This document shows, piece by piece, positions 1,316-53,865 of a stretch of DNA of 64,000 bases. Position 1 is the first letter of the stretch; every line of letters begins with the position of its first letter. Under the pieces are notes generated by a model. The model was not told the DNA's origin, did no database searches, and saw nothing but the letters and a program-made list of their open reading frames with translations. This DNA is from Candidatus Levyibacteriota bacterium (GTDB lineage Bacteria > Patescibacteriota > Microgenomatia > Levybacterales > UBA12049): NCBI GenBank assembly GCA_016186645.1, contig JACPLF010000007.1, forward strand, positions 126,651-190,650. The letters run 5' to 3'. The translations under genes were made by a program, and so were the position numbers.

Positions 1316-3060
1316 TTATTTTCTTCAATAATTGACAGAAGTGCTTCTTGAGGAATAGAGATTTTTGCCTGAGAGATCATTCGGGATTTTCCTTTTTTTT
1401 GAGCTTCCAATAATTTATCTTTTCTTCTTCTGTCCCCGCCACTCATCTTAGCTAAAACATCTTTTCTAAAAGGCGGGGTTTCTTCCCGAGTTACAATGTT
1501 TCCGTCTACAACTCCTTGGATAATTTGTCTGAATTGCTGGCGCGGCAGCGAGTTTTTAAGTCTTTCTGCTTTTTGTCTTGCTACATGAATTGCCTCATCT
1601 TTATATGCAAGCTCTGATAAAATATCAATTGCAATATCATTTACTTTTAGCTCAATTTTCGCCAAATCTGCAACTTTGTAAGAAGTCAATTCGTAATCTA
1701 GACTTGCATAGCCTTTGGATTTGGATTTCAGATCGGATGAAATTCCCCTAATAAACATGCTAAAAGGCATATCATAAGAGAGCGCTGCATAACTTTCATG
1801 ATAATTTAGGTCTAATAAGCTTCCTTTTCGGCTCTGGCAGATGTTCATAATCGGACCTACATAATCTTTAGGCGTATAAACTATCAATTTCATATAAGGC
1901 TCTAGTATTGTTCCATCCTCTCTCTTTTCATATAAGACGTGGGGCATAGTTAATAAAATTTCCAAATTAAATTCCTGCTTTATTCTTTCTTTGACAATCT
2001 GAGCATGTAAAAGTCCCAAAAATCCTACCCTAAAACCGGATCCTAAATAAGACGAATATTCTTCCGTATAAGTTAGGGCAGTGTCGTTAAGAGTCAATTT
2101 TGCAAGCGATTCTTTTAAATAGGCATAATCATTTGTACTTTTTGGATAGACTCCAAAAAACACCATCGGTTTGGGAATCTTGTATCCGGGCAGCGGTTCA
2201 AACTCCGAACTCTGAGCTCCGAACTCTGAACTCCGGACAGTGTCTCCGACACGCACTTTTCGGATATCTTTAACTCCTGTAATAACGTAACCAATTTCAC
2301 CTGTTGTTATTTCATTTGAAGAAACTAAATGGGGGGAGAAATATCCCAAATCTGTAATTTCTGACTCGATATTATTTTGATAAAACTCGATTTTTTCTCC
2401 TTTTTTTACTTGCCCATCAACTATTCTCACATACGCAACTACCCCGCGGAATTCATCATAAACAGCATCAAAAATAAGACCGCGCAGGGTCTTATCTTTT
2501 TCCCCTTTTGGCGCAGGAAGTCTCTTTACAACAGCTTCCAAAAGACTTTCTATATTTTTTCCTGTTTTTGCCGAAATATAAATTATTTCTTCTTCTTTAA
2601 ATCCAAATGTTCCAGCTAATTCTTTGCTTGTTGATTCAATCTGTGCGCTCGGCAAATCTATCTTGTTAACAACAGGTATCATGACTAAATTTTGTTTTTT
2701 GGCTTCTCTGAAATGCGCGACAGTTTGGGCTTGAATTCCCTGAGTTGCATCTACTAATAATATTGCCCCCTCACAAGCCGCCAACGTTCGGGAAACTTCA
2801 TAAGAAAAATCAACATGACCCGGAGTATCTATCAAATTCAGAATGTATAATTCAGAATTAAGAATATATTTCATTCTTACCGGGGCGAGCTTGATTGTTA
2901 TTCCCCGGCGTCTGCTGATTGGATTTTGGTCCAAAAACTGTTCTGTTATTTTTTCCTTGGGGATTGTTTTTGTAATTTCCAAAAGTCTGTCTGCAAGAGT
3001 GGATTTGCCATGATCTACATGAGCAATAATCGCAAAATTCCTAATATTTTTCTGTTCCAT
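1312..3060 (-). CDS. lepA: elongation factor 4 (LepA), translational GTPase
   Basis: N-terminus MEQKNIRNFAIIAHVDHGKSTLADRLLE (G1 motif AHVDHGKST), DTPGHVDF, NKID motifs; about 582 aa. Confidence 0.9.
   Translation of the reverse strand: MEQKNIRNFAIIAHVDHGKSTLADRLLEITKTIPKEKITEQFLDQNPISRRRGITIKLAPVRMKYILNSELYILNLIDTPGHVDFSYEVSRTLAACEGAILLVDATQGIQAQTVAHFREAKKQNLVMIPVVNKIDLPSAQIESTSKELAGTFGFKEEEIIYISAKTGKNIESLLEAVVKRLPAPKGEKDKTLRGLIFDAVYDEFRGVVAYVRIVDGQVKKGEKIEFYQNNIESEITDLGYFSPHLVSSNEITTGEIGYVITGVKDIRKVRVGDTVRSSEFGAQSSEFEPLPGYKIPKPMVFFGVYPKSTNDYAYLKESLAKLTLNDTALTYTEEYSSYLGSGFRVGFLGLLHAQIVKERIKQEFNLEILLTMPHVLYEKREDGTILEPYMKLIVYTPKDYVGPIMNICQSRKGSLLDLNYHESYAALSYDMPFSMFIRGISSDLKSKSKGYASLDYELTSYKVADLAKIELKVNDIAIDILSELAYKDEAIHVARQKAERLKNSLPRQQFRQIIQGVVDGNIVTREETPPFRKDVLAKMSGGDRRRKDKLLEAQKKGKSRMISQAKISIPQEALLSIIEENN
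2202..2237. repeat. 14-nt tandem repeat (ctccgaactctga x2 plus partial) in-frame inside lepA
   Basis: Direct tandem copies at 2202-2216, 2217-2230 and partial 2231-2237; encodes SSEFGAQSSEFEP on the minus strand without breaking the ORF. Confidence 0.7.
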
Positions 3061-7858: not shown

Positions 7859-9402
7859 TGGTGTTTTTATTGATTTTAATTGGCGGATTTTTTCGCTTTT
7901 ACAATTTGGATTGGGGCAGCCCTTTTTATTTTCACCCTGATGAAAGAAATATTGCATCTTCTGTATTACAGATCAATTTCCCCAATCAGATGAACCCTCA
8001 TTTTTTTGCTTATGGATCTTTTCCTATATATTTAATTTATTTTACAGCTTTTTTTTTAAATTTAGTTAGCAAATCCCAACTGACTTTTGAACAAGCGCTT
8101 ATTATCAGCCGGTTCTATTCTGCAATTTTATCCGTACTTCTTATTCCCTCCATTTATTACATAGGAAGCAAATTAGCAAATAAAAACGTTGGGCTTATTG
8201 CAGCAGTATTTTGTACTTTTAGTGTTGGTCTGATTCAATTTTCTCATTTTGGAACATTTGAAATTTGGCTTACTTTTTTAGGTCTTTGGCTCTTTTATTT
8301 TTCCCTAAAATTATTAAAACAATTAGATTTTAAAGATATCATTACGGTTGGACTAATATCCGGACTTCTTGCAGCAACAAAGATTTCCTCTCTACCTCTT
8401 CTGATGATCCCTATGTTTTCTATATTAATAAGTTATTTATCACACAATAAATTATTCAAACATATCTTATATGGCTTGTCGCTAATATTTATCTCCTGCA
8501 TCTTATTTTACGCTGTTTCTCCTTATGTTTTTCTGGATACTTCTTCTTTTATAGCAAGCATGAGGCATGAGTCTTCTGTTGCTTTGGGAACATTATCTGT
8601 TTTTTATACGGGTGGCTTTTTCAATTCTATTCCTGTTATTTTCCAGTTTACGAAAATTTATCCATTTTTACTTAATCCAGCCTTGACTATCTTATTTATT
8701 CCTTCCCTAATTTATGTTATTTATTTTTTTCTGAAAAAACGGCATTATCCTCAATTACTTGTAGTCGCTTGTTTTTTATTACTTTTTTTCTCCCAAGCTT
8801 TTCTTTTTGCCAAATGGACAAGATATATATTGCCCACTTTGCCATTTGTATATTTAATAATTGCAATTTTTATAGATAAATTTATCAATAAAAAAATATT
8901 GCAAATCATATTTCTTATTTGCATAGTTTTTTCATGTTCTTATTTTATTGACAGTTTTGCAAGAAAGGATACCCGTATCCAGGCAAGTCTTTGGGCAAAA
9001 GAAAATATTCCTTCCAGCTCACGAGTATTAAGTGAGGTTTATGATTTGGGAATAGTCCCATTTAATCAATATCTGCCAAATATTTCCTTATTCAATTTTT
9101 ATGACTTAGATCAAACCCCCGACAAACCCTTGGAGCTTGATAAATTCTTATTAGAAAGTGGATATATTATTTTACCTAGTCAGAGAATTATACAAACTCG
9201 TATGATGAATAAAGACGAATTTCCCAATGGATATAAGTTTTACAATGAACTTATAAATGAGAAATTGGGATATAAAAAGGTTTACGAAACTTCTTGTGAT
9301 CTATTCTGCAAAATAATATATCTTGGAGATCCGGTTTTTTCATTCGAGGAAACTGCAAATGTTTTCGACCGCCCTACTGTTTTTATCTTTAAAAGAATGT
9401 GA
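7855..9402 (+). CDS. GT-C fold membrane glycosyltransferase (GT39/PMT_2-like, HPDER loop motif)
   Basis: 515 aa polytopic membrane protein; N-terminal loop FYNLDWGSPFYFHPDERNIASS; paralogous to the next gene. Confidence 0.55.
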   Translation: MMVFLLILIGGFFRFYNLDWGSPFYFHPDERNIASSVLQINFPNQMNPHFFAYGSFPIYLIYFTAFFLNLVSKSQLTFEQALIISRFYSAILSVLLIPSIYYIGSKLANKNVGLIAAVFCTFSVGLIQFSHFGTFEIWLTFLGLWLFYFSLKLLKQLDFKDIITVGLISGLLAATKISSLPLLMIPMFSILISYLSHNKLFKHILYGLSLIFISCILFYAVSPYVFLDTSSFIASMRHESSVALGTLSVFYTGGFFNSIPVIFQFTKIYPFLLNPALTILFIPSLIYVIYFFLKKRHYPQLLVVACFLLLFFSQAFLFAKWTRYILPTLPFVYLIIAIFIDKFINKKILQIIFLICIVFSCSYFIDSFARKDTRIQASLWAKENIPSSSRVLSEVYDLGIVPFNQYLPNISLFNFYDLDQTPDKPLELDKFLLESGYIILPSQRIIQTRMMNKDEFPNGYKFYNELINEKLGYKKVYETSCDLFCKIIYLGDPVFSFEETANVFDRPTVFIFKRM

Positions 9403-11147
9403 AATATCTACCATTATTTTTAATTTTAATTCTTGCTTTTATCTTGAGGGTATACGGACTAAATTGGGATCAAGGATTTCATTTGCACCCTGATGAACGG
9501 GCAATTGTAATTGCCTCTATACCCTTACAACTTCCTACCAATATTTCGGAACTTTTATCTGTCCAAAGCCCTTTAAATCCTCACTTTTTTGCATATGGGA
9601 GTTTACCAATGTATCTTCTTAAAGGGGTTGCTGTTCTCTTAACACCTTTTTATCCTCTTGCCTCATCATATGATCATATTAATTTAGTCGGACGTTTCCT
9701 CTCTGTTATTTTCGACATGGGAACTATTCTTATTATTTTTCTTCTGGGACAAAAACTTTTTTCAAGAAAAGTTGGACTAATAGCTGTATTTTTTTATACT
9801 ATAAGTGTTTTCCCTATCCAAGCTGCGCATTTTTATGCTGTTGATACCCCTCTTACTTTCTTTATTTTAGCAACTCTTTATATGCTTATTAGTTTCTATG
9901 AAAATCCTACAAAGAAAAAAGCTCTTTTTGTGGGGATATTATTTGGAATGTCTCTTGCAACGAAAACAAGTGCTTTAGTTCTGATAATGTCAATTGGAGC
10001 AGCATTAATTTCAGATTTTGTTTTGATATTTCTAAGAATTCCCCACCGACCTCATATTTGGTTTCCTCACATCCCTAAACTCATAAAAAAACTTTTAATA
10101 GAAGGTTTAATTATTTTAATATCAACAGTTATTTCTTTTATTATTTTTGAACCTTATGCTCTTTTGGATTTTAAGGAATTCTCAAGACAAACTCTGGAGC
10201 AATCGCAAATGACACATAATCCTTTCGCTTTCCCTTTTACCCTTCAGTACGTTGGAAAAATTCCATATTTCTATGAATTAAAAAATATTTTCTTTTGGGG
10301 TCAAGGACCGATTATTGCGACAATTTCTTTTTTGGGAACACTGTATATTAGTTTTCACCTAATAAAGAGACACCTCGGATGGTGGCGAAGCAACGACTTC
10401 GACTCCTCCGAGGTGGACAAGAGATGGGCACAAGAACTTATTCTTTTAATTTTTTTCTTAAGTTATTTTATTGTGGTTGGAAAATTTGCAGTCGGCTGGA
10501 TGCGCTACATGCTCCCTCTCTATCCTCTCCTTTCTCTTTTCGCAGCAGTTCTTGCTTATAAACTTCTAATTTTAATTAAGCGCAAATTTGGTTATTGGTA
10601 TTTATTTGTAGTATTGGTATTTATTTGTAGTATTTTATACTGGCCTTTATCTTTCGTGAATATTTATACAAAACCAAACACTCGCGTTTTGGCATCTGAG
10701 TGGATTAATCAAAATATTCCAGTAGGACCAACTCTTGCAATAGAACACTGGGATGATTCCCTTCCCTTGTTTGGCCAAGAAAAATATAAAATGCTTACAC
10801 TTCCGCTTTATGATCCCGATACTTCTGAAAAATGGAAAACAATAAATCAGGAATTATCAAAAACCGATTACATTATTATTGCTTCCAATCGACTTTATAC
10901 GCCACTTATGCGTTTGACAGATTGCAAAAAATTACCGGTGGGAAGATGCTATACGCAAACTTCTGAATATTATAAAAAACTATTTAGCGGATCTCTGGGT
11001 TTTAAGAAAGTAGCTGAATTCACATCGTATCCTAAATTTAGCTTCCCACTTGTCAAGTGGGAGCACGAAATAAATGATTCCTCAGCAGATGAATCTTTTA
11101 CGGTATACGATCATCCAAAAGTCCTAATTTTTCAGAAAATTCCTTGA
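9399..11147 (+). CDS. GT-C fold membrane glycosyltransferase (GT39/PMT_2-like), tandem paralog
   Basis: 582 aa; VYGLNWDQGFHLHPDERAIVIAS loop motif; ATGA start/stop overlap with the upstream paralog. Confidence 0.55.
   Translation: MKYLPLFLILILAFILRVYGLNWDQGFHLHPDERAIVIASIPLQLPTNISELLSVQSPLNPHFFAYGSLPMYLLKGVAVLLTPFYPLASSYDHINLVGRFLSVIFDMGTILIIFLLGQKLFSRKVGLIAVFFYTISVFPIQAAHFYAVDTPLTFFILATLYMLISFYENPTKKKALFVGILFGMSLATKTSALVLIMSIGAALISDFVLIFLRIPHRPHIWFPHIPKLIKKLLIEGLIILISTVISFIIFEPYALLDFKEFSRQTLEQSQMTHNPFAFPFTLQYVGKIPYFYELKNIFFWGQGPIIATISFLGTLYISFHLIKRHLGWWRSNDFDSSEVDKRWAQELILLIFFLSYFIVVGKFAVGWMRYMLPLYPLLSLFAAVLAYKLLILIKRKFGYWYLFVVLVFICSILYWPLSFVNIYTKPNTRVLASEWINQNIPVGPTLAIEHWDDSLPLFGQEKYKMLTLPLYDPDTSEKWKTINQELSKTDYIIIASNRLYTPLMRLTDCKKLPVGRCYTQTSEYYKKLFSGSLGFKKVAEFTSYPKFSFPLVKWEHEINDSSADESFTVYDHPKVLIFQKIP
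10374..10413. repeat. hairpin element (cctcgga ... tccgagg) in-frame within the GT-C gene
   Basis: 7-bp inverted repeat flanking cgacttcgactcc, a core shared with the uvrD/guaA element family; encodes ...LGWWRSNDFDSSEVDK.... Confidence 0.5.
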
Positions 11148-11178: not shown

Positions 11179-12222
11179 ATGACAAAAAAGGAAGTTTTAA
11201 TTACGGGAGGTTGTGGCTTCTTAGGAGTACATCTTGCAAGAAAGCTCCTTAGAGAAAATTATGAAGTAACTCTTTTTGATATTGTGAGTCCTGATGCAAA
11301 AGATCTGATTGAGAAAGTTAAATATATACAAGGGGATGTGCGAAACAAAAAAGCTATTGAGAATGCATTAAAAAACCAGGATTACGTTGTCCACGCAGCT
11401 GCAGCTTTACCAATTTTAAGAGAGAAAAAAATAATTTTCGACATAAATATAAACGGCACTGAAAATGTTTTGAGTTCTGCTTTGCAGAATAAAATAAAAA
11501 GATTAGTTTTCATTTCATCAACCGCAGTTTATGGAATTCCTAGACATCTTCCAGAAACAGAAACAAATCCTCTTGATCCAATTGGATATTATGGAGAATC
11601 AAAAGTTGCGGGAGAAAAATTGTGTTTGGAATATTTCAAAAAAGGACTATCTGTGAATATACTTCGCCCAAAATCATTTTTAGGCCCTGAGAGATTAGGT
11701 ATTTTTGAATTATGGTTTGAAGCGATATATAGAGATAAAAGCGTGTTCATTCTGGGTAACGGCAATAACAAATATCAACTCTTGGCAGTATCTGATGTGG
11801 TTGATGCAATAATAAGGGCAATGGAAAGTGAAATTGATGGAGAAATTTTCAACATTGGAGCAAAAGAGTTCCAGACTTGGAATAAAGATCTGGGATCTGT
11901 AATGAGATATGCAAAGTCCAAATCCAAAATAGTAAAACTCCCTACTCTACCTTCCCAGGTTATTTTAAGTATCTTAGAAAAATTGAATCTTTCCCCAATT
12001 GCTGCCTGGCATTATAAAACTATGCCTGTCGACTCATATATATCTATAAAAAAAGCAGAAAAATTATTAAATTGGGAGCCTGAAAAATCCAATGAGGAAT
12101 TATTAATTGAAAGTTATGACTGGTATAAAAAACACAGAAGTGAAATAATAAATAAAGTCGGGATTACCCACAGAGTCGGCTGGAATTTCAAGCTTATAAA
12201 TCTTATTAAGAATATATTTTAA
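11179..12222 (+). CDS. NAD-dependent sugar epimerase/dehydratase (SDR family)
   Basis: VLITGGCGFLGVHLARKLL Rossmann motif; YxxxK (YGESK) catalytic motif; 347 aa. Confidence 0.8.
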   Translation: MTKKEVLITGGCGFLGVHLARKLLRENYEVTLFDIVSPDAKDLIEKVKYIQGDVRNKKAIENALKNQDYVVHAAAALPILREKKIIFDININGTENVLSSALQNKIKRLVFISSTAVYGIPRHLPETETNPLDPIGYYGESKVAGEKLCLEYFKKGLSVNILRPKSFLGPERLGIFELWFEAIYRDKSVFILGNGNNKYQLLAVSDVVDAIIRAMESEIDGEIFNIGAKEFQTWNKDLGSVMRYAKSKSKIVKLPTLPSQVILSILEKLNLSPIAAWHYKTMPVDSYISIKKAEKLLNWEPEKSNEELLIESYDWYKKHRSEIINKVGITHRVGWNFKLINLIKNIF

Positions 12223-12224
12223 AG

Positions 12225-12791
12225 ATGAATATTGGATTTGATTTAGATAAAATATTTATTAATTATCCTCCTTTTGTTCCATCAAAAATTATTGATTTAT
12301 TATATAAAGGAAAACCGCGTGCGGAATTGGAATATCGTATACCGTCAAGATTGGAGCAGATTATTAGAATATTCAGCCACCACCCTATATTTAGATCTCC
12401 TATAGCTGAAAACATGAATTATGTTAAAGACTTAGCTTTACAGAATGAAAATAAATATTATCTTATTTCCAGTAGATTCAGCTTTTTGGAGAAAAAAACA
12501 ACAGAACTTATAAAGCGTCTCAGCCTAGATAAAATATTTAATGCGATGTATTTCAACTACAATAATGAACAGCCTCATCTTTTTAAAAACGGAGTGCTAA
12601 AGAAGTTAAAACTTGATATGTACATTGACGATGATTTGCAACTTTTGGAATATCTAGGGAATAAAAATCCTAAAATCAAATTTTTCTGGTTGAATAAGAA
12701 GTTTAGCAGATCATTGAAAAAAAATTTATTTGCTATAAAAAACATTTCGGAAATGTTCACCCCGCACCAAAATGGTGCAGGGTTCAAATAA
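12225..12791 (+). CDS. hypothetical protein, possibly degenerate HAD-like (NT5C-type) hydrolase
   Basis: MNIGFDLDKIF resembles HAD motif I (DxD); YIDDDL resembles motif IV; weak. Confidence 0.3.
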   Translation: MNIGFDLDKIFINYPPFVPSKIIDLLYKGKPRAELEYRIPSRLEQIIRIFSHHPIFRSPIAENMNYVKDLALQNENKYYLISSRFSFLEKKTTELIKRLSLDKIFNAMYFNYNNEQPHLFKNGVLKKLKLDMYIDDDLQLLEYLGNKNPKIKFFWLNKKFSRSLKKNLFAIKNISEMFTPHQNGAGFK

Positions 12792-15069
12792 TATGCTCCT
12801 CTCGGATTTGCTTAATATTTTCCAATGGTGGGCAACATTTTTTTTTGCTGGCGTTATCTTTATTCCCATAACAACTTTGATCTTTCCCAACTTTTTCGAT
12901 AAGGGTTATATTTTTGCGAAAGTTATAGGAATAGCATTAATAAGTTATACAATTTTTGTTTTAGGGTTTTTAAAACTACTTCCTTTTGAAACGCAAAATC
13001 TCTACATAATTCTAGGATTGTTTATTCCTATCAATTTATTGATTGGGAGAAAAAGTAAACTCAATTTCAAGCAGATACTCCCAATAATTATTATAGAAGA
13101 ATTTTTATTCGCAGCAATTCTTTTGTTTTGGTCTTTTATCCATGCCCACCAACCGGACATTCATGGGCTGGAAAAATATATGGATTATGGATTTATAAAT
13201 TCTATTTTAAGAGCTAAGTATTTTCCTCCTTTAGATATGTGGCTTACACCCTACCCTATTAACTATTATTATTTTGGGCATTTAGTAACTGCTGTTTTGA
13301 CAAAGCTTTCATTTCTTTCGTCATCAATTACTTTCAATTTAACGCTTTCAACAATCGCTGCATTTACTTTTACAGGTGCATTTTCAATTGGCGCAAATCT
13401 CCTATATTTTTTAAACAAAAACGGTAAAAATTCGAAATTACCAATAATCGGAGGCATTCTTACTGGACTTATACTAGGTTTTGCAGGAAACCTGCATACA
13501 GTTTATTTATTTTTCAAGCCTTATGAAAATGAAAATCCTGTACCTTTTTGGCAGTTAATCTTTTCTCCTAATACATTTCCAAATAGCTATTGGTATCCAA
13601 ATGCAACGCGCTTCATCGAAAACACTATTCACGAATTTCCAATCTATTCCTCTGTTGTTTCCGATCTGCATGGCCACGTTCTAGACATACCTTTTGTACT
13701 GCTAACAATAGCTATTCTTTTATCAATATTTTTTAGATTTAATAATCAATCCTCAATTCAAAATTTAAAATTCAAAATTCAAAGTGACAATTCAAAATTC
13801 AAAATCTTAAACTTTGAGTTTCCGTTTTTAACTTTTAACTTTTCACTTTTAACTTTGCTAGCATTTTTGCTAGCAATTATGTATATGATCAATGCTTGGG
13901 ACGGAATAATATATTTCTTATTGACAGCAATCGTAATTGCCTATGTCAAGCTAAAGTCAATAATACAAATTTCTCCCCACCAAAGTATTAAGTATTATGT
14001 ATCAAGTATTAAACAATCAAAGTACCTAATACCTACTACTTTATACTTAATACTTATTTTTGTTGGGTTTTTCCTTTTTACTTTACCTTTTAATCTTAAT
14101 TTCAAGCCTTTTGCTTCGGGGATTGGCGTACTTTGTGCGCCAAAATTTCTAACAGACATAGGACAATTTGGACCTTTCCTTTTTGAGCCAGACCATTGCC
14201 AACATTCACCTTTATGGCAATTATTTATTCTATATGGCTTTTTCTATTTTTGGATTTTTGGATTTTTAGTTTTTAAAATTAGAAATTTTTCTCCACCCGA
14301 TATCTTTGTATTGATTCTAATCCTGTTATCCGCTCTTCTTATTATCATTCCTGAATTTATATATGTAAAAGATATTTATCCTGCACACTACAGAGCAAAC
14401 ACCATGTTCAAACTTGTATATCAGTCATTCATGATGCTTTCTATCTCCTCGGGCTATATAATGGTTAGGCTAGTATCAAGTATTAAGTATTACGTATTAA
14501 GTATCGAGAAAAAAATTCTTTATGTCTTATACTTTATACCTGCTACCTTATACTTAATACTGGTATTCTTTTATCCTTATTTTGCGATTAATTCCTACTT
14601 TGGAAATTTAAAAACTTACCATGGTCTTGATGGAACAAGTTATCTTAAGCCACTTTATCCAAATGACTATGAAGCCATTTTGTGGATTAATAAAAACATT
14701 AAAGGACAACCAATTATTCTTGAAGCGCAGGGAGATTCGTATACCGACTATGGTCGCGTATCAGCCAATACCGGACTACCAACTGTTTTAGGATGGACTG
14801 TTCATGAATGGCTTTGGCGCGGAACCTATGATATTCCTTCCCCTCGGATCGAAGAAGTTGCAAAAATGTACGAATCCGATAATTCGAAAGAGATAGAATC
14901 CTTGTTAAAAAAATATAAAGTTTCGCTTATATTTATTGGTGAGTTAGAAAGACAAAAATATCCAAATCTTAATGAGGAAAAATTTCAGCTTTTAGGAAAA
15001 ACTATTTATCAAAAAGGCGATACAAGGATATTCCAGTCGATCACTGAAGAGGACAATCGCCAATTTTAA
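12772..15069 (+). CDS. large polytopic membrane protein (possible GT-C/DUF2298-like), carrying in-frame repeat insertions
   Basis: 765 aa, many TM helices, C-terminal soluble domain; internal tandem repeats and two inverted-repeat insertions (see repeat features). Confidence 0.45.
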   Translation: MVQGSNNMLLSDLLNIFQWWATFFFAGVIFIPITTLIFPNFFDKGYIFAKVIGIALISYTIFVLGFLKLLPFETQNLYIILGLFIPINLLIGRKSKLNFKQILPIIIIEEFLFAAILLFWSFIHAHQPDIHGLEKYMDYGFINSILRAKYFPPLDMWLTPYPINYYYFGHLVTAVLTKLSFLSSSITFNLTLSTIAAFTFTGAFSIGANLLYFLNKNGKNSKLPIIGGILTGLILGFAGNLHTVYLFFKPYENENPVPFWQLIFSPNTFPNSYWYPNATRFIENTIHEFPIYSSVVSDLHGHVLDIPFVLLTIAILLSIFFRFNNQSSIQNLKFKIQSDNSKFKILNFEFPFLTFNFSLLTLLAFLLAIMYMINAWDGIIYFLLTAIVIAYVKLKSIIQISPHQSIKYYVSSIKQSKYLIPTTLYLILIFVGFFLFTLPFNLNFKPFASGIGVLCAPKFLTDIGQFGPFLFEPDHCQHSPLWQLFILYGFFYFWIFGFLVFKIRNFSPPDIFVLILILLSALLIIIPEFIYVKDIYPAHYRANTMFKLVYQSFMMLSISSGYIMVRLVSSIKYYVLSIEKKILYVLYFIPATLYLILVFFYPYFAINSYFGNLKTYHGLDGTSYLKPLYPNDYEAILWINKNIKGQPIILEAQGDSYTDYGRVSANTGLPTVLGWTVHEWLWRGTYDIPSPRIEEVAKMYESDNSKEIESLLKKYKVSLIFIGELERQKYPNLNEEKFQLLGKTIYQKGDTRIFQSITEEDNRQF
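13755..13855. repeat. tandem simple repeats (aattcaaa)n then (ttttaac)n in-frame within CDS
   Basis: aattcaaaatttaaaattcaaaattcaaagtgacaattcaaaattcaaaatc ... ttttaacttttaacttttcacttttaacttt; encodes QNLKFKIQSDNSKFKILNFEFPFLTFNFSLLTL. Confidence 0.7.
13984..14055. repeat. inverted-repeat element (agtattaagtat ... atacttaatact) inserted in-frame, copy 1
   Basis: Termini agtattaagtatt and atacttaatact are reverse complements; a diverged second copy lies at 14472-14562 in the same gene. Confidence 0.55.
14472..14562. repeat. inverted-repeat element (agtatcaagtattaagtatt ... tacttaatact), copy 2
   Basis: Same terminal inverted repeats as copy 1; encodes VSSIKYYVLSIEKK...ATLYLIL paralleling ISPHQSIKYYVSSIKQ...TTLYLIL. 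Confidence 0.55.
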
Positions 15070-18677: not shown

Positions 18678-19662
18678 TCACCCATTACAATCTGCTGCGT
18701 GGGGTGAATTTAGAAAAAAAACTGGAATAAAAGTAATAAAAATTAATAGAACCCAAATAACAATTCACAAGGTTCCTCACACACCCTGGACAATTGGCTA
18801 TGTCCCAAAAGGTCCGCTTCCAGACAAAGAAATGATTTCAGAACTTAAGAGAATCGGGAGAGAGAAAAAATGTGTGTTTATTCAGCTGGAACCAAATGTA
18901 TTAATTGAAAATTCTAAATTGAAAATTGAAAATTTAGGTCTTAAGCCAGCCGCTCATCCTTTGTTTACAAAATATACTTTTGTGTTGGATTTAACAAAGT
19001 CCGAAGTGGAATTGCTGAAAGAAATGCATCCAAAGACTAGATACAACATAAAAGTAGCGCTCAAACACGGTGTTAAAATTGTTCAGGATAATTCGAATGA
19101 AGCTTTTGAAACCTATTTAAAATTGACAGAAGAGACAACAAGAAGACAAGGTTTTTATGCGCATACAGAAAAATACCATAGGCTAATGTGGGAAACATTA
19201 AAAAATGAAAAATTAAAAATGAAAAATGAAAAATTGGATACTGATAAACTTACTGCTCATCTCTTATTGGCTAAGTATAGTCCAAACTCTCAACTCTCAA
19301 CTTTCAATTCTCAACTCGTTCTGGCTGCTTGGATTTTGTTTGTTTATAAAGATACCCTTTATTATCCATATGGCGCATCAAGCAGTTTACATCGGGAAAC
19401 AATGGCATCAAATCTAATAATGTGGGAAGCAATAAAGTTTGGAAAAGAATTAGGTCTTAAAAAATTTGACATGTGGGGAGCCTTAGGGCATGATCCTTCT
19501 ACAAATGACCCTTGGTATGGATTCCACAAATTCAAACAAGGATATGGGCCAAAACTTACTGAATTTGTTGGAAGTTTCGATCTGGTAATAAATCCGTTTT
19601 TTTATGAGATGTATAAAATAGCAGACAAAATTAGGTGGGCACTTCTGAAAATTAAAAAATGA
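18661..19662 (+). CDS. FemAB-family peptidyltransferase (peptidoglycan interpeptide bridge formation)
   Basis: 333 aa, FemABX/GNAT-like fold signatures (...YYPYGASSS...MWEAIKFGKELGLKKFDMWG); carries three in-frame simple tandem repeats. Confidence 0.55.
   Translation: MKALTNHPLQSAAWGEFRKKTGIKVIKINRTQITIHKVPHTPWTIGYVPKGPLPDKEMISELKRIGREKKCVFIQLEPNVLIENSKLKIENLGLKPAAHPLFTKYTFVLDLTKSEVELLKEMHPKTRYNIKVALKHGVKIVQDNSNEAFETYLKLTEETTRRQGFYAHTEKYHRLMWETLKNEKLKMKNEKLDTDKLTAHLLLAKYSPNSQLSTFNSQLVLAAWILFVYKDTLYYPYGASSSLHRETMASNLIMWEAIKFGKELGLKKFDMWGALGHDPSTNDPWYGFHKFKQGYGPKLTEFVGSFDLVINPFFYEMYKIADKIRWALLKIKK
19201..19235. repeat. (gaaaaat)n tandem repeat in-frame in FemAB gene
   Basis: aaaaatgaaaaattaaaaatgaaaaatgaaaaatt encodes KNEKLKMKNEKL; related (ttgaaaa)n tracts at 18916-18935 and 33526-33562 and in intergenic DNA at 45826-45856 and 53825-53856. 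Confidence 0.65.
19286..19317. repeat. (ctctcaa)n tandem repeat in-frame in FemAB gene
   Basis: aactctcaactctcaactttcaattctcaactc encodes NSQLSTFNSQLV. Confidence 0.65.
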
Positions 19663-36506: not shown

Positions 36507-36785
36507 ATGGATAATCAAAATAAAATAACATCTATCTTATTTCTTCTTAAAAAAAAGAAAATACTTATTGGAGTACCATTGCTTCTGCTTTCTGTCGGAG
36601 TAATTTATGTTGGGCTAGTGCGATTTGGAGTTATCAAAGATCCTTTCCCTCTTCCTAATATACCTTTTCTTCAAACAGTCCCACAAGTTTCTATAAAAAC
36701 AGAATACAAAAATCCTTTTGATAAAAAAACCCAGTACGTAAATCCATTTGACACTTATAAAAATCCTTTTGTAATTGCAAAATAA
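36507..36785 (+). CDS. small membrane protein with C-terminal NPFD repeats, coupled to the giant protein
   Basis: 92 aa; one TM; C-terminus KNPFDKKTQYVNPFDTYKNPF; TAATG overlap with the next gene. Confidence 0.35.
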   Translation: MDNQNKITSILFLLKKKKILIGVPLLLLSVGVIYVGLVRFGVIKDPFPLPNIPFLQTVPQVSIKTEYKNPFDKKTQYVNPFDTYKNPFVIAK

Positions 36786-39553
36786 TGATAATAAGTAAAA
36801 TTTTAACATTGAACCCTATTAAGACATTACTTCTGGCATTGGCTGCGATGTTTTTATTATTTCTCGTAACAACTTCTGTTTTTTCACAAAGCCCAACAAT
36901 CCAACCAACAACTGCTACAGGACCGTCTCTTAACCTTGCTTTTCCCATAGAAGAATTGGGCGCATGCAAGAGTCTGGAAGAATGTAGCAATTATTGTCAG
37001 GATCCTGTTCACCAAAACAGTTGTACTAATTTTGCAAAGAAAAATGGATTCTATCAGGATGACCAAACAGCCTATGGAGATGATAAATTTTATCAGGATG
37101 TAAAAGAGGAATTAGGATGCGATACGCACGAATCTTGTTTTAACTTTTGTTCAGAGCCTGCGAATTTTGACACATGCGAATCCTATGCCAAAAGAAATGA
37201 AATACCAGGCGGCTATGTCGGAGAACCGGATAAGCCTGAATATTTAACCATTGCTAAGCAAGTTTTAGGTTGTGATTCACCTGTAAGCTGCTCAAATTTC
37301 TGCGATGATCCCGCAAATGCTGATAAATGTTCTAGCTTTGCTGATCAAGTAGGACTTTTAGGCGGAAATACTCAAGAAGGTCCTGGTGGATGTCAGACTC
37401 CCGGCACTTGCGGAGCATATTGTTCTGATCCTGCAAATTATGTGGAATGTTCTAAATTTGCTCCGGGAGGGGGTAATTTTGCAGGACCAGGCGGGTGTAA
37501 TAGTGAAGCAACATGTCGAAGTTATTGCGATCAAAATCCTGCTAATTGCCGAAGTTATGCTCCCGGCTCAAGTGGGGCATATGGGACTTTTAATTGTGTC
37601 GAAGGTCAGACTCATGGACCAGGCGGACTTTGTACCAATGTGAACGTTATGGCTTTGGCTGCTGCCTGCGTTGGAGCTGGTAAATTTTGGGATGGAACTT
37701 CCTGTCAGGATACCGCTCCTGTAGGTATATCTCCAGAACTGCCAAGTGCGCATTTTGAACAAAGACCGGAAATGGGCAATTGCTCAACTCCTGGTCAATG
37801 TTATGATTATTGTAAGGATAATCTTGTGAATGGTGCGAGCGTTTGTCCGGGATTCGATGCTACAGCATCCCGTCCAACCGACAGCTATACACCATATCTA
37901 TATTATACTCCCGGAACTGAGGTTAAATTTGAACCAAAGCCGGAGATGGGTAACTGTGATTCTCCTGGCGCTTGTTATGACTATTGTAAAGAAAATCCCG
38001 ATAAATGCGAAGGATTTGATCCTAAGGCTCCAGTACCAATAGACATTTGGATTCCAAATACTTACTACACTCCTCCTACAGATGGTATCTATTCTACTCC
38101 GCCAACAACCAATTTCTACACAACGCCAATGTACTACACTCCGCCAGTCGGCTCTACTTATACTACTCCTCAATACTACACGCCTGGCACATATTCTACT
38201 CCAAGTTACTATACACCGCCTATAGGATCGAACTATACTACGCCTAACTACTATACTCCTTGGACTAATTATGCGACACCAACCGGAGAGTATCCGACTC
38301 CGACTTATTCAACACCAACTTACTACACTCCTCCTGGTGGATCTAATTACACAACGCCTTACTATTACACTCCCCCTCATTACACAACGCCTTACTATTA
38401 CACTCCCGGCCAAGGTGGCTATGCGTCTAATTACACAACTCCTCCTGCCTATTCAACTCCTCCGCCATATGTAACTCCTCAGTATTACACGCCTTACACC
38501 GGCGGCGGTTATACAACTCCTGTTTACTATACACCGCCTGTTTACACAACCCCAACTTACTACACTCCTCCTGCAGGCTCGAACTACACCAGCCCAAGTT
38601 ATTACACGCCTCCTCCTCCTTATACAACACCAAATTACTATACTCCTGGCACTTACCCAACACCTCCTACTTATACATCTCCTACGGCTTATACGACGCC
38701 TAACTATCCAACTCCTCCATTAGGCAGTAACTATACCTCCCCTAGCTATTATTCGCCAGCAAGCTATCCAACACCAACTTATTACACACCAGGTTTTTAC
38801 CCAACACCTTATTATTACACGCCTTATTCAACACCCTCCTATCACACTCCTCCTGAAGGATCAACCTATACCAGCCCGACTTACTACACACCATATTCAA
38901 CGCCAAATTACTTTACGCCAACGTACTATTCACCTTCTTACTACACGCCTGGCGGAACCTACACAAGTCCTTATTATACTCCTGGAAGCGGTTACACATC
39001 CCCAACCTCAAATTATACAACTCCATCAACTAGCTATACTTCTCCATACTACAGTCCTTACGCAAGTCCATCATATTACACACCCTCAGACCCGAATTAT
39101 ACAACGCCGTCTTATCCAACGCCTTATTCCTATCCTACTCCGGGATCAACAACTTCTTATCCATACCCGACTCCTGGAACAGGATATTCTTACCCAACGC
39201 CAAGCGGCTATTATTACCCAACCCCATCAGACACTAGTTATCCTTCTCCATATACCGGCTATGCTTATCCAACGCCTGGAACTAGTTATTCTTACCCTTC
39301 GCCAACATACGGCACGCCTTCGGGAAGCTATTATTACCCAACACCCGGATCCGGATCTTATGGCACGCCATCATACGGCACCCCTGAATATCACACACCA
39401 AGCTATGGAACACCTTCAGAAAGCTACGGAACACCGAGTTATGGAACGCCATCGTATGGCACTCCTTCTGATTACCCAACCCCTCCCTTGGGAGTTTCCA
39501 CCTTCAATCCCGGATTATTACAGAATATCTGGAGCTTCCTTATCGGCAGATAA
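36785..39553 (+). CDS. giant secreted protein: seven 4-Cys modules followed by about 500 aa of Tyr/Thr/Pro-rich repeats
   Basis: Signal/TM at N-terminus; repeats of G-C-x4-C-x2-[YF]-C-x2-P-x-N-x2-3-C-x2-[FY]-A; then YYTPP / GSNYT[TS]P repeats; hydrophobic C-terminus. Confidence 0.6.
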   Translation: MIISKILTLNPIKTLLLALAAMFLLFLVTTSVFSQSPTIQPTTATGPSLNLAFPIEELGACKSLEECSNYCQDPVHQNSCTNFAKKNGFYQDDQTAYGDDKFYQDVKEELGCDTHESCFNFCSEPANFDTCESYAKRNEIPGGYVGEPDKPEYLTIAKQVLGCDSPVSCSNFCDDPANADKCSSFADQVGLLGGNTQEGPGGCQTPGTCGAYCSDPANYVECSKFAPGGGNFAGPGGCNSEATCRSYCDQNPANCRSYAPGSSGAYGTFNCVEGQTHGPGGLCTNVNVMALAAACVGAGKFWDGTSCQDTAPVGISPELPSAHFEQRPEMGNCSTPGQCYDYCKDNLVNGASVCPGFDATASRPTDSYTPYLYYTPGTEVKFEPKPEMGNCDSPGACYDYCKENPDKCEGFDPKAPVPIDIWIPNTYYTPPTDGIYSTPPTTNFYTTPMYYTPPVGSTYTTPQYYTPGTYSTPSYYTPPIGSNYTTPNYYTPWTNYATPTGEYPTPTYSTPTYYTPPGGSNYTTPYYYTPPHYTTPYYYTPGQGGYASNYTTPPAYSTPPPYVTPQYYTPYTGGGYTTPVYYTPPVYTTPTYYTPPAGSNYTSPSYYTPPPPYTTPNYYTPGTYPTPPTYTSPTAYTTPNYPTPPLGSNYTSPSYYSPASYPTPTYYTPGFYPTPYYYTPYSTPSYHTPPEGSTYTSPTYYTPYSTPNYFTPTYYSPSYYTPGGTYTSPYYTPGSGYTSPTSNYTTPSTSYTSPYYSPYASPSYYTPSDPNYTTPSYPTPYSYPTPGSTTSYPYPTPGTGYSYPTPSGYYYPTPSDTSYPSPYTGYAYPTPGTSYSYPSPTYGTPSGSYYYPTPGSGSYGTPSYGTPEYHTPSYGTPSESYGTPSYGTPSYGTPSDYPTPPLGVSTFNPGLLQNIWSFLIGR

Positions 39554-45745: not shown

Positions 45746-45862
45746 CTCCTCCCTCTTACAAAACCACAGGATAATTATATCAAAAGCTAGATTTATAAGT
45801 GTTTTAATGATAAAATTATAGCCAGAAATTAATTTTTAACTTTTAATTTTTAATTTCGTTTA

Positions 45863-45937
45863 TTCCTCTGTAGCTCAATGGTAGAGCGGCGCCCTGTTAA
45901 GGCGAAGGTTAGAGGTCCGAGTCCTCTCGGGGGAGCC
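45863..45937 (+). tRNA. tRNA-Asn (anticodon GTT)
   Basis: tcctctgtagctcaatggtagagcggcgccctgttaaggcga...agaggtccgagtcctctcggggga-g-cca; 5' half matches E. coli tRNA-Asn (UCCUCUGUAG...CUGUUAA); cloverleaf folds with 7-bp acceptor (2 GU), T-stem agagg/cctct; encoded CCA. Confidence 0.8.
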
Positions 45938-53818: not shown

Positions 53819-53865
53819 TATTGTCGTTCAATTTTTCACTTTTCATTTTTCATTTTTAGTTTATG

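What the first reader, a model, noticed from the sequence alone, without database searches (positions are those of the whole stretch)
13984..14562. Two copies of an inverted-repeat mini-element inserted in-frame in one membrane-protein gene
Copy 1 (13984-14055) and copy 2 (14472-14562) each begin with agtattaagtatt-type and end with atacttaatact-type sequences, which are exact reverse complements. Both are translated in the same frame, giving parallel peptides ...SIKYYVSSIK...TTLYLILIF and ...SSIKYYVLSIEK...ATLYLILVF. Upstream at 13755-13855 the same gene also carries (aattcaaa)n and (ttttaac)n tracts. This gene looks like a hotspot for insertions that keep the frame.
Basis: seen in the sequence. 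Interest (0 to 1): 0.55.

Follow-up and report, generated by a model that had tools for sequence, protein, structure and literature searches.

The report
Seven-base repeat hairpins inside genes
The two look-alike segments are real. They belong to a much wider habit of this uncultured bacterial group (Candidatus Levybacteria) of carrying short runs of a 7-base unit, often next to a back-to-front copy, inside working protein genes, where they are read as extra or rewritten protein loops.

Summary
The DUF2298 membrane-protein gene (12772-15069, +) holds two imperfect hairpin repeats, at 13983-14056 and 14472-14561. Both are in frame and both fold well (z about -4 to -5).

The upstream tracts also have period 7, not 8.

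Period-7 arrays are a lineage-wide feature:
- The window has 10, against 0.05 in shuffles.
- 1.44 Mb of related Levybacteria loci has 152, against 0 in shuffles. 94% lie inside ORFs, with more than 100 different units.
- In this window they also sit in GuaA, LepA and FemAB.
- About a quarter have an adjacent inverted copy.

Ortholog comparison shows:
- Copy 1: the right arm (start of a transmembrane helix) is shared by close relatives, while the left arm and loop (17-18 codons) are present in only some.
- Copy 2: no net insertion. It rewrites an orthologous 35-codon segment and most resembles copy 1.
- GuaA: a 36-nt inverted copy was added beside a pre-existing array.

Best reading (0.5): arrays arise in place by slippage, short-range template switching adds inverted copies, and selection keeps only in-frame, stop-free versions in tolerant loops. 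Main rival (0.3): small mobile palindromes like the Rickettsia palindromic elements. I rate it a new variant of known kinds.

The parts
12772..15069 (+). Host gene: a 765-aa DUF2298 ('YYY') polytopic membrane protein of a Candidatus Levybacteria MAG
   Evidence: ORF. Pfam PF10060, E 1.1e-96. A 100% identical protein is named Candidatus Levybacteria by NCBI.
13755..13805 (+). Heptamer array (AATTCAA)x7.4, encoding SIQNLKFKIQSDNSKFKI, in a variable loop ('site 0')
   Evidence: TRF period 7. Orthologs carry (AAATTGG)x4 or other units at this place. Disordered in the AF2 model.
13826..13856 (+). Heptamer array (TTTTAAC)x4.4, encoding FLTFNFSLLTL. One unit reads TTTTCAC, which turns a would-be TAA into TCA.
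   Evidence: Only weakly complementary to 13755-13805 (z -1.7).
13983..14012 (+). Copy 1, left arm: (AAGTATT)x4.3, encoding QSIKYYVSSIK. Together with the loop, this is the part absent from the close orthologs L083 and L084.
   Evidence: Short helix 406-413 in the model.
14013..14022 (+). Copy 1, loop (KQSK)
14023..14056 (+). Copy 1, right arm: (TACTTAA)x4.9, encoding YLIPTTLYLILI, the start of a transmembrane helix. Present in all close orthologs. Contains most of the longest exact DNA match to ortholog L081 (40 nt, 14027-14066).
14472..14504 (+). Copy 2, left arm: (AGTATTA)x4.7, encoding LVSSIKYYVLSI
14505..14526 (+). Copy 2, loop (EKKILYV), 12 nt longer than in copy 1
14527..14561 (+). Copy 2, right arm: (TTATACT)x5.0, encoding LYFIPATLYLIL, the start of a hydrophobic helix
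55066..55134 (-). The same kind of object in GMP synthase (guaA). A heptamer array (GAAATGA-type, present in all orthologs) is followed by a 36-nt inverted copy that the closest ortholog lacks. Peptide: LEMKDERSEMRNK + NFPSLISQFSSK.
18903..19317 (+). Three heptamer arrays in the FemAB-family gene: 18903-18934 (AATTGAA), 19201-19234 (AAAAATG) and 19285-19317 (AACTCTC)
2201..2235 (-). Heptamer array, (AACTCCG)x5 on the + strand, in the LepA inter-domain linker (peptide RSSEFGAQSSEFE)
45829..45856 (.). Intergenic heptamer array (TTAATTT)x4, just upstream of a tRNA gene
53831..53857 (.). Intergenic heptamer array (ATTTTTC)x3.9, between the convergent purB and guaA genes

Best explanation
The two segments are local instances of a lineage-specific DNA-level process in a subgroup of Candidatus Levybacteria. 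They are not two insertions of one transposable mini-element.

Step 1 (shown as a pattern, mechanism inferred). Short tandem arrays of a 7-nt unit, typically 4-5 copies, arise and are homogenised in place by replication slippage. Because 7 = 1 mod 3, an array encodes the same cyclic 7-residue peptide in all three frames. Only changes of 3 units (21 nt, 7 aa) keep the downstream frame, so these are the changes seen between orthologs.

Step 2 (polarity shown at guaA, compatible at DUF2298 site 1, mechanism inferred). A short-range template switch, or snap-back synthesis, adds an inverted copy of an existing array next to it. This creates a quasi-palindrome with a short A-rich (Lys-rich) loop. 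The same process can later keep the arms similar.

Step 3 (shown). Selection keeps only versions that stay in frame, lose their stop codons through variant units, and sit in permissive places. These places are loops and the ends of transmembrane helices, which is why the loop-rich DUF2298 gene is a hot spot.

In this gene, copy 1 is a shared array encoding a helix start plus an added inverted left arm. Copy 2 is an orthologous 35-codon loop-plus-helix segment that is heptamer-structured in many lineages. In this genome it has been overwritten or homogenised with the copy-1 sequence by ectopic conversion or template switching over about 490 nt. That last step is inferred.
For: Period-7 excess:
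- Period 7 is uniquely enriched: 10 arrays in the window against 0.05 in shuffles, with other periods near 0.
- 1.44 Mb of related loci has 152 arrays against 0 in shuffles; period 6 gives 7, period 8 gives 17, period 9 gives 2.
- There are 221 arrays with more than 100 different units, and 94% lie in ORFs, which cover 93% of the DNA.

Distribution:
- Most arrays are solo. 26% have an inverted partner (at least 16/21) within 110 nt, against 3% of controls, and these partners use at least 35 different units.
- Array density is clade-structured at similar GC, which points to a heritable mutational property: 167 arrays per 799 kb on the window side of the tree against 42 per 700 kb elsewhere. About half of the 83 loci have none, most of them about 22 kb long (L081-L084 were not scanned).

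Slippage signature:
- L083 differs from L084 by exactly 21 nt, 1 against 4 units of TTAAATC, at site 2.
- Length differences to the nearest orthologs at arrays peak at +7 aa: 31, against 11 and 13 for +6 and +8.

Concerted evolution at fixed position and length:
- 77 of 120 guaA orthologs share the modal length for this segment. The 60 listed there carry arrays with different units (LKIKNLKLKI, LEIGNLKLEI, LQMANGKWQMAN).
- The FemAB loops behave the same way.

Polarity of hairpin formation:
- The window guaA equals the closest ortholog L205 plus 36 nt that are an inverted copy of the adjacent array.
- At DUF2298 site 1 the right arm is shared, and the left arm with loop is present in only some orthologs.

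Translation and selection:
- Units that would carry a stop make up 37% on the coding strand, against 59% for random heptamers and 73% on the opposite strand.
- TAT or TAC replaces the would-be TAA at the same unit in both copies.

Literature:
- Heptameric SSRs are over-represented in many bacteria, and this has been attributed to polymerase slippage (PMC4692102).
- Quasipalindrome template switching is an established bacterial mutational route (PMC7202029).
Against: - The same AGTATTA/TAATACT hairpin occurs in frame in unrelated genes of related organisms: a WecG-family transferase, two PMT_2-type proteins and an unknown protein. In the WecG loop whole hairpins of at least 5 recurring types are present or absent, and they are scattered on the tree. 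That looks more like dispersed element families.
- Relative to more distant DUF2298 orthologs (L012, L019, L030) the whole of copy 1 is extra, so L083 and L084 could be half-deleted derivatives.
- A genuinely dispersed, roughly 100-nt in-frame palindrome exists in these genomes.
- Close relatives (L015/L021; L137/L138/L182) show no copy-number differences, so slippage is not fast now.
- The +7-aa peak comes from non-independent comparisons.
- No slippage or template-switch event was observed directly.
- Why the unit length is 7 remains unexplained.
Confidence: 0.5

Rival explanations
1. Small non-autonomous mobile palindromes, like MITEs or Rickettsia palindromic elements. In this reading, families of 60-110-nt hairpin elements whose arms happen to be heptamer repeats transpose or are copied into genes. 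They survive only when in frame in permissive loops. Copies 1 and 2 would be two members of the 'AGTATTA' family, and solo arrays would be decayed halves.
For: - The two copies have sharp, perfectly complementary termini, and their flanks are unrelated.
- The same hairpin is in frame in WecG, PMT_2 and an unknown protein.
- The WecG loop is empty in minimal orthologs and filled by at least 5 recurring hairpin types elsewhere.
- The same roughly 100-nt palindrome sits in FemAB of L006 and DUF2298 of L007, with similar peptides in guaA.
- GC-rich palindromes are nested in arrays with flanking direct repeats (L081, L027).
- RPEs set the precedent for in-frame palindromic insertions (PMC10969869).
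Against: - Only two copies, both in one gene, occur in 64 kb.
- 74% of arrays lack a partner, and units are very diverse.
- Copy 2 and the guaA array involve no net insertion, yet have different units in different lineages.
- At guaA only one arm is new.
- No convincing target-site duplication was seen at the filled-versus-empty comparisons.
- Loops differ among 'family' members.
- No transposase was seen among the 27 window ORFs scanned; this is weak evidence.
Confidence: 0.3
2. The hairpins are kept by selection for a function of the nucleic acid itself. One example would be an mRNA stem that paces translation just before a transmembrane helix is inserted. Another would be a DNA or RNA binding site.
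For: - The hairpins fold significantly on both strands (z -3.4 to -5.8).
- In this gene the right arms coincide with helix starts.
- The right arm of copy 1 contains most of the longest exact DNA match to an ortholog that is 75% identical overall.
- Hairpin architecture persists at the WecG loop while the sequence changes.
Against: - Arms often drift apart. In L015 the right arm (TTGCTAC)x4 matches the left arm at only 5 of 7 positions; L068 is similar.
- Most arrays are solo.
- Hairpins also occur in soluble enzymes (guaA, WecG).
- Many orthologs do without them.
- The 40-nt exact run is not an outlier: other runs reach 36 and 35 nt.
Confidence: 0.1
3. Phase-variable contingency loci. Heptanucleotide tracts in genes for envelope-related proteins would switch the genes ON and OFF by single-unit slippage, as in E. 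coli neuO.
For: - Coding heptanucleotide repeats drive phase variation in neuO, which is translated only when the repeat number is divisible by 3 (PMC13001214).
- Several hosts are envelope-related: DUF2298, PMT_2, FemAB, WecG.
Against: - The tracts are short (4-5 units) and imperfect (75-92% matches).
- They also lie in housekeeping genes such as guaA and lepA.
- 79 of 83 DUF2298 orthologs are intact through both end motifs, with no frameshifted alleles. By contrast, 66% of neuO genomes are OFF.
- Close relatives have identical copy numbers.
Confidence: 0.04
4. An ancient internal duplication of a loop-plus-helix module of the protein, unrelated to any DNA-level process.
For: The two peptides are parallel, and each precedes a hydrophobic helix.
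Against: - The distribution among orthologs is patchy, and different sequences occupy the same sites.
- The similarity is confined to the DNA repeat and is 88-93% at DNA level in a gene whose orthologs are about 75% identical.
- A 7-nt periodicity has no protein-level rationale.
Confidence: 0.03

Closest known systems
Heptanucleotide simple-sequence repeats of bacteria: cyanobacterial STRR sequences (Calothrix, Nostoc) and Xanthomonas GGGAATC repeats
   Same: Both are tandem 7-nt units in short arrays. Period 7 is over-represented genome-wide and in a lineage-specific way relative to other periods. Some pairs are arranged as inverted repeats. Polymerase slippage has been proposed as the cause (PMC4692102). 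From my own knowledge (Elhai et al. 2008, Genome Res 18:1484; the paper was not readable here, reference seen), small palindromic elements are embedded in heptamer arrays in Nostoc. This parallels the GC-rich palindromes nested in arrays in L081 and L027.
   Different: The known cases are described as intergenic and use a few G-rich units. Here 94% of arrays lie inside ORFs, including housekeeping genes. They are translated, use more than 100 AT-rich units, and occur in CPR bacteria.
Rickettsia palindromic elements (RPEs) and other intragenic MITEs
   Same: Both are palindromic segments found in frame inside unrelated genes, adding peptide segments at tolerated surface positions (PMC10969869).
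   Different: RPEs are about 150 bp and fall into ten sequence families, each with a conserved peptide. Here the segments are 70-90 nt, their arms are tandem heptamers, and their sequences are highly diverse. Often only one arm is extra, or there is no net insertion.
The neuO poly-heptanucleotide tract of E. coli K1
   Same: It is a 7-nt tandem repeat inside a coding sequence. The frame is preserved only in steps of three units, and the tract is translated into a 7-residue periodic peptide (PMC13001214).
   Different: The neuO tract is long (3-53 units), perfect and hypermutable, and it works as an ON/OFF switch. The tracts here are short, imperfect and stable between close relatives, and no OFF alleles were seen.
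Quasipalindrome-associated template-switch mutations (E. coli, yeast, great apes)
   Same: An inverted copy is templated from adjacent sequence during replication. Imperfect inverted repeats are made or corrected in this way (PMC7202029, PMC7954356). The 36-nt addition in guaA has this form.
   Different: Known events are mostly point-like corrections or rare rearrangements. Here they would have to be frequent enough to accompany about a quarter of the arrays in a lineage.
[quoted passage not shown]
   Same: The coding DNA has dyad symmetry, encodes amphipathic segments and is associated with membrane proteins (PMC2996958).
   Different: PARCELs are tandem arrays of a conserved 25-residue motif in ORFs of unknown function. 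Here there are single hairpins with no conserved motif, sitting inside conserved enzymes. I did not test this with the PARCEL HMM.

Membership tests
Heptanucleotide SSR / STRR-type repeats | Tandem head-to-tail copies of a 7-nt unit | tested here: met
   TRF gives period 7, 4.3-5.0 copies and 75-88% matches for all four arms. The upstream tracts have 7.4 and 4.4 copies.
Heptanucleotide SSR / STRR-type repeats | Period 7 specifically over-represented in the genome relative to chance and to other periods | tested here: met
   Window: 10 arrays against 0.05 in shuffles. Related loci: 152 against 0, with periods 6, 8 and 9 giving 7, 17 and 2.
Heptanucleotide SSR / STRR-type repeats | Intergenic location, as described for STRR and Xanthomonas repeats | tested here: not met
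   207 of 221 arrays lie inside ORFs of at least 150 aa. Hosts include guaA, lepA and femAB.
Heptanucleotide SSR / STRR-type repeats | Length variation in whole units between relatives | tested here: inconclusive
   An exact 21-nt (3-unit) difference separates L083 from L084, and there is a peak at +7 aa. However, the closest pairs show no copy-number change, and the comparisons are not independent.
MITE / Rickettsia-palindromic-element-like mobile element | Terminal inverted repeats bounding a short non-coding-capacity unit | tested here: met
   The termini are 12-13 nt and perfectly complementary, and the arms are 29-35 nt.
MITE / Rickettsia-palindromic-element-like mobile element | Multiple dispersed copies of the same sequence at unrelated loci of one genome | tested here: inconclusive
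   The 64-kb window has only the two copies, both in one gene. The rest of the genome is not available. Related organisms carry the same arms in WecG, PMT_2 and an unknown gene.
MITE / Rickettsia-palindromic-element-like mobile element | Filled versus empty orthologous sites differing by the whole unit, with a target-site duplication | tested here: not met
   At copy 1 only the left arm and loop are missing from L083 and L084. Copy 2 shows no net length change. At guaA only one arm is added. No target-site duplication beyond AAA was seen. Whole-unit differences exist only against distant orthologs and at the WecG loop.
MITE / Rickettsia-palindromic-element-like mobile element | A cognate transposase or other mobilising enzyme in the genome | not testable with these tools
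   Only 64 kb of the genome is available. None of the 27 window ORFs scanned with Pfam is a transposase.
Phase-variable contingency locus (neuO type) | A long, perfect repeat tract | tested here: not met
   The tracts have 4-5 units with 75-88% matches.
Phase-variable contingency locus (neuO type) | Out-of-frame (OFF) alleles among relatives or within populations | tested here: not met
   79 of 83 orthologs are intact through both end motifs. One of the other four (L068) is cut by the contig end; L048, L073 and L077 keep ORFs of 715-731 aa in which the exact C-terminal motif string was not found. Population reads were not available.
Internal protein-domain duplication | Both copies shared by orthologs | tested here: not met
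   The distribution is patchy, and different sequences occupy the same sites.
Template-switch (quasipalindrome) product | An inverted copy lying directly beside its source with a short spacer, and relatives that have the source only | tested here: met
   guaA: L205 has the array only, while the window has the array plus a 36-nt inverted copy. DUF2298 site 1: L083 and L084 have the right arm only. Spacers are 13-15 nt.
Template-switch (quasipalindrome) product | Direct observation of the event, or a polymerase or repair defect that promotes it | not testable with these tools
   This needs population reads, complete genomes or experiments.

The most novel reading that the evidence does not exclude
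A subgroup of Levybacteria, and perhaps other lineages such as heptamer-rich cyanobacteria, may possess a dedicated heritable activity that writes 7-nt arrays and their inverted copies into DNA genome-wide. This could be an unusual replicative or repair polymerase property, a snap-back-prone enzyme, or a hairpin-specific nuclease or transposase. In these tiny genomes it would act as a generator of new protein segments, such as loops and helix extensions, inside essential genes. The recurring hairpin 'types' would be its products. This would be a new route of protein-sequence innovation and a new class of intragenic repeat.
Probability: 0.2. Interest if true: 0.85.

Novelty: new variant of a known kind. 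Interest (0 to 1): 0.62.

Why it matters
Repeats whose unit length is not a multiple of three are normally excluded from coding DNA, or are used as on/off switches. Here they are common inside intact genes, including essential ones, in a reduced-genome CPR lineage, and they are translated.

If the in-place reading is right, a simple replication error mode (7-nt slippage plus snap-back copying) continually rewrites and extends protein loops. It would explain much of the length variation among Levybacteria orthologs (698-885 aa for DUF2298, 505-585 aa for GuaA, 237-314 aa for WecG).

The clade-restricted density makes the long-standing question 'why heptamers?' testable, by comparing replication and repair genes between array-rich and array-free sister lineages. 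There are also practical consequences. These segments can mislead homology searches, alignment, domain boundaries and structure prediction for CPR proteins.

Tried and rejected
1. Ancient internal duplication: rejected by ortholog alignments.
2. A known RNA family: Rfam at gathering threshold found only a tRNA in the window, and nothing in four gut loci that carry the same arms.
3. Testing the 'genome-wide copies' idea with an exact two-arm pattern in metagenomes returned at least 120 hits. Most are non-coding elements in human-gut contigs of 40-48% GC and are not informative for this lineage. Only 8 are in frame in CPR-like genes.
4. Pairing called from consensus units alone was too crude: only 2 of 33 adjacent array pairs had complementary units within 1 mismatch. 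I replaced it with an ungapped complementarity scan against controls.
5. Searching for the conserved core of the roughly 100-nt palindrome (AAATACAAATGACAAAAA) found only 2 exact copies in 204 loci, and nothing above chance in the window.
6. A neighbour-joining tree of WecG, intended to test whether hairpin types are clade-specific, was too noisy to decide.
7. Whole-element identity could not cleanly separate 'copy 2 derives from copy 1' from 'copy 2 is the ancestral site-2 hairpin' (scores 39.0 against 37.5). Only the right arm discriminates, at 28/32 against 14-23/32.
8. Elhai et al. 2008 could not be read.
9. Literature searches found no description of heptamer arrays or in-frame hairpins in CPR bacteria.
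10. The AF2 model is only moderate (mean pLDDT 64), so I did not take it to fold search.
Full report
**What is there.** The finding lies in one intact ORF, 12772-15069 (+), 765 aa. It is a DUF2298 ('YYY') polytopic membrane protein (Pfam E 1.1e-96). A 100% identical protein is recorded from a Candidatus Levybacteria MAG on a 244-kb contig.

AGTATTAAGTAT and its reverse complement bound both segments, and one-mismatch matches number 9 against 0.52 expected. The repeat finder reports two inverted repeats: 13983-14011/14027-14055 (83% complementary) and 14479-14513/14527-14561 (74%). It also reports direct similarity between the copies, 93% over 27 nt for the left arms and 88% over 32 nt for the right arms. 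Both segments fold far better than shuffles, with z -4.8 and -4.1 as RNA and -4.4 and -5.8 on the opposite strand.

Every arm is a tandem array of a 7-nt unit with 4.3-5.0 copies. The upstream 'aattcaaa' and 'ttttaac' tracts are also period 7: (AATTCAA)x7.4 and (TTTTAAC)x4.4.

Period-7 arrays with other units occur elsewhere in the window:
- in lepA (2201-2235);
- in a FemAB-family gene (three arrays, 18903-19317);
- in guaA (55066-55134, again a hairpin);
- in two intergenic spots.

A period scan gives 10 period-7 arrays in the window against 0.05 in dinucleotide shuffles, with other periods near zero.

**It is a lineage-wide phenomenon.** I fetched 80 loci around DUF2298 orthologs from species-representative genomes, nearly all labelled Levybacteria or Patescibacteria.
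- In 1.44 Mb, period 7 gives 152 arrays against 0 in shuffles. Periods 6, 8 and 9 give 7, 17 and 2.
- At a looser threshold there are 221 arrays with more than 100 different AT-rich units. 94% lie inside ORFs of at least 150 aa, which cover 93% of the DNA, so coding sequence is not avoided.
- 26% of arrays have an inverted-complement partner (at least 16/21) within 110 nt, against 3% of controls. These hairpins use at least 35 different units.
- DUF2298 genes carry 0.47 arrays/kb against 0.093/kb in their flanks, clustered at relative positions 0.40-0.55 and 0.60-0.80.
- Density is clade-structured at similar GC. About half of the 83 loci have none, most of them about 22 kb long (L081-L084 were not scanned), while every locus of 10 kb or more in the window's clade that was scanned has 0.1-0.7/kb.

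**The arrays are translated and filtered by selection.** Because 7 = 1 mod 3, a perfect heptamer array encodes one cyclic 7-residue peptide in all three frames. If the unit can produce a stop, every frame meets it. Stop-producing consensus units make up 37% on the coding strand, against 59% for random heptamers of the same composition and 73% on the opposite strand.

In this gene the would-be TAA of (AGTATTA)n is TAT in copy 1 and TAC in copy 2, in the same unit. The would-be TAA of (TTTTAAC)n is TCA. 79 of 83 DUF2298 orthologs are intact through both end motifs, and none is frameshifted at an array.

**Are the two copies insertions?** I used alignments of 25 and then 83 orthologs, plus DNA of the four closest orthologs.

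*Copy 1 (site 1).* The right arm, of (TACATAA)/(TACTTAA) type and encoding the start of a hydrophobic helix, is present in all five close sequences. The left arm and loop (51-54 nt, 17-18 codons) are present in the window, L081, L082 and L068, and absent in L083 and L084. Other relatives carry a different heptamer hairpin at this place (KNEKLKIKN...FKFKIK), and more distant ones have nothing there.

*Copy 2 (site 2).* The anchored segment is 43 aa in the window against 40-41 in three of the four closest orthologs (34 in L083). The span used is 105 nt long in the window and also in six distant lineages (L015, L021, L034, L050, L029, L027). Each of these has heptamer arms of a different unit and a common peptide pattern (R-I-V-S-S-I-K-Y-x-V-L-S-I-x-K-K-I-L...Y-L-L-L-A). 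So there is no net insertion.

Most of the closest relatives instead carry a (TTAAATC)x4 array there. L083 has exactly 21 nt, or three units, fewer than L084. Copy 2's right arm matches copy 1 (and copy 1 of L081) at 28/32, against 14-23/32 for site-2 arms of other lineages. This suggests copying or homogenisation between the two sites, but whole-element scores do not separate the alternatives.

*Structure.* The AF2 model (mean pLDDT 64) and hydropathy place the right arms at the starts of helices that all orthologs have. The copy-1 left arm forms a short extra helix at 406-413, and site 0 is disordered. No transmembrane helix is added.

**Polarity of hairpin formation.** guaA gives the clearest case. 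77 of 120 Levybacteria orthologs share the modal length (35 aa) for the KEYG...VWMSHGD segment. From memory of the B. subtilis GuaA sequence, this is about as long as in B. subtilis. Its core is a heptamer array whose unit differs between lineages (LKIKNLKLKI, LEIGNLKLEI, LQMANGKWQMAN...).

The window protein is 12 aa longer there. At DNA level it equals the closest ortholog (L205, 80% identical) plus 36 nt inserted between GAAATAA and ATTGCCGC, and those 36 nt are an inverted copy of the adjacent array. The array therefore came first and the inverted arm was added later. Site 1 of DUF2298 is compatible with the same order.

The guaA and FemAB loops also show arrays at fixed positions and lengths with different units in different lineages. 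That is what concerted evolution of an inherited array predicts, and it is not what independent insertions predict.

**Slippage signature.** Besides the exact 21-nt difference between L083 and L084, length differences at arrays relative to the nearest orthologs peak at +7 aa: 31 cases, against 11 and 13 for +6 and +8. The comparisons are not independent. Close pairs (L015/L021; L137/L138/L182) have identical copy numbers, so the process is slow at present.

**Evidence pulling the other way.**
Eight hits are in frame in unrelated genes on contigs of 28-44% GC: a WecG-family glycosyltransferase whose relatives are Levybacteria or Patescibacteria, two PMT_2-type proteins, an unknown protein, and one short unidentified ORF (L142).
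- In the WecG family one loop is 6-9 aa in minimal orthologs and 30-90 aa in most. It is filled by at least 5 recurring hairpin types, including AGTATTA and TTAAATC types that also occur in DUF2298. There are also half-hairpins and nested GC-rich inserts, and the types are scattered on a noisy tree.
- One roughly 100-nt palindrome (core AAATACAAATGACAAAAA) is in frame in FemAB of L006 and in DUF2298 of L007, and similar peptides occur in guaA orthologs.
- GC-rich palindromes sit inside arrays, flanked by direct repeats of the array (L081 site 0; L027 2878-3049).

These genomes therefore do contain dispersed in-frame palindromes like the Rickettsia palindromic elements. The AGTATTA hairpins could belong to that world.

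**Verdict.**
- Best-supported (0.5): heptamer arrays form and are homogenised in place, template switching adds inverted copies, selection filters them, and copy 2 was homogenised with copy 1.
- Main rival (0.3): a family of small mobile palindromes. The two readings are not exclusive.
- Minor readings: a selected nucleic-acid hairpin (0.1), phase variation (0.04) and an ancient protein duplication (0.03).

**Comparison with what is known.** Heptameric SSRs are known to be over-represented in many bacteria. The classic cases are cyanobacterial STRR sequences and Xanthomonas GGGAATC repeats, which are intergenic, and polymerase slippage has been proposed as the cause (PMC4692102). E. coli neuO shows that a coding heptanucleotide tract is read through only in multiples of three units (PMC13001214). 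RPEs show in-frame palindromic insertions (PMC10969869). Quasipalindrome template switching is an established mechanism (PMC7202029).

I found nothing in the searched library on heptamer arrays or hairpin-coded insertions in CPR bacteria. The combination seen here fits no single known family: arrays are mostly intragenic, they are translated, their units are diverse, they are often paired as quasi-palindromes, and their density is clade-restricted. I rate it a new variant of known kinds.

Noticed in passing
L087 1982-2042; L090 9468-9528; L097 12240-12298; L102; L118 1425-1492; many others among L085-L204: Human-gut and other metagenome contigs of 40-48% GC carry a non-coding repeat family. 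It has perfectly complementary 28-nt arms made of four heptamers (AGTATTAAGTAATAAGTATTAAGTATTA) around variable 30-40-nt cores, which often contain CCGCATGG next to one arm. Several different cores share the same arms. There was no Rfam match. Organism and function are unknown.
   Followed up: partly
L081 about 2650-2812 (DUF2298 site 0); L027 2878-3049: GC-rich palindromes of about 40-72 nt are inserted inside AT-rich heptamer arrays and flanked by direct repeats of the array (AAATTGGAAATTG; AGTATTTAGTATTAAG). In L081 the insert is in frame, giving ARPPATLPKQSNVKQASVAGEVGRG. This resembles the small dispersed repeats embedded in heptamer arrays in Nostoc.
   Followed up: partly
L006 about 13040-13140 (FemAB gene); L007 about 11620-11730 (DUF2298 gene): The same roughly 100-nt palindrome (core AAATACAAATGACAAAAA; peptide ...KQYQNTNDKNSK...FEFRIS) is in frame in two different genes of two genomes. 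Similar peptides occur in guaA orthologs P0207, P0221 and P0141. This is a genuine dispersed in-frame palindromic element family.
   Followed up: partly
WecG-family proteins P0241-P0360 (loop between KIAFVGEEW and DILFVAFGAPKQE); DNA example L111 614-678: One loop of this glycosyltransferase ranges from 6 to about 90 aa among Levybacteria/Patescibacteria orthologs. It is filled by at least five recurring hairpin-coded peptide types, plus half-hairpins and nested inserts.
   Followed up: partly
L147 (14,185 nt, 47% GC) and L091 (same sample): A different organism with an extreme density of heptamer arrays: 20 arrays in 14 kb and 6 in 5.3 kb. Its identity was not determined.
   Followed up: no
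window 45827-45935: An intergenic (TTAATTT)x4 array ends 6 nt before a tRNA gene (45864-45935, Rfam 62 bits).
   Followed up: no
window 10593-10634: A perfect 19-nt tandem repeat (TATTGGTATTTATTTGTAG x2.2, 100% matches) lies inside the PMT/PMT_2 membrane glycosyltransferase gene 9399-11147. Its period is not a multiple of 3.
   Followed up: no
window 38346-38545 and 38771-38814: Degenerate 18-nt and 15-nt tandem repeats lie inside a 922-aa ORF (36785-39553) that has no Pfam match.
   Followed up: no
window 14235-14267: A period-8 tract (TGGATTTT x4.1) lies in the same DUF2298 gene, encoding FWIFGFLVF within a helix. At the corresponding place, about half of the 25 aligned orthologs show KNWKLEIR/KNLKLKIK heptamer-type peptides.
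   Followed up: no
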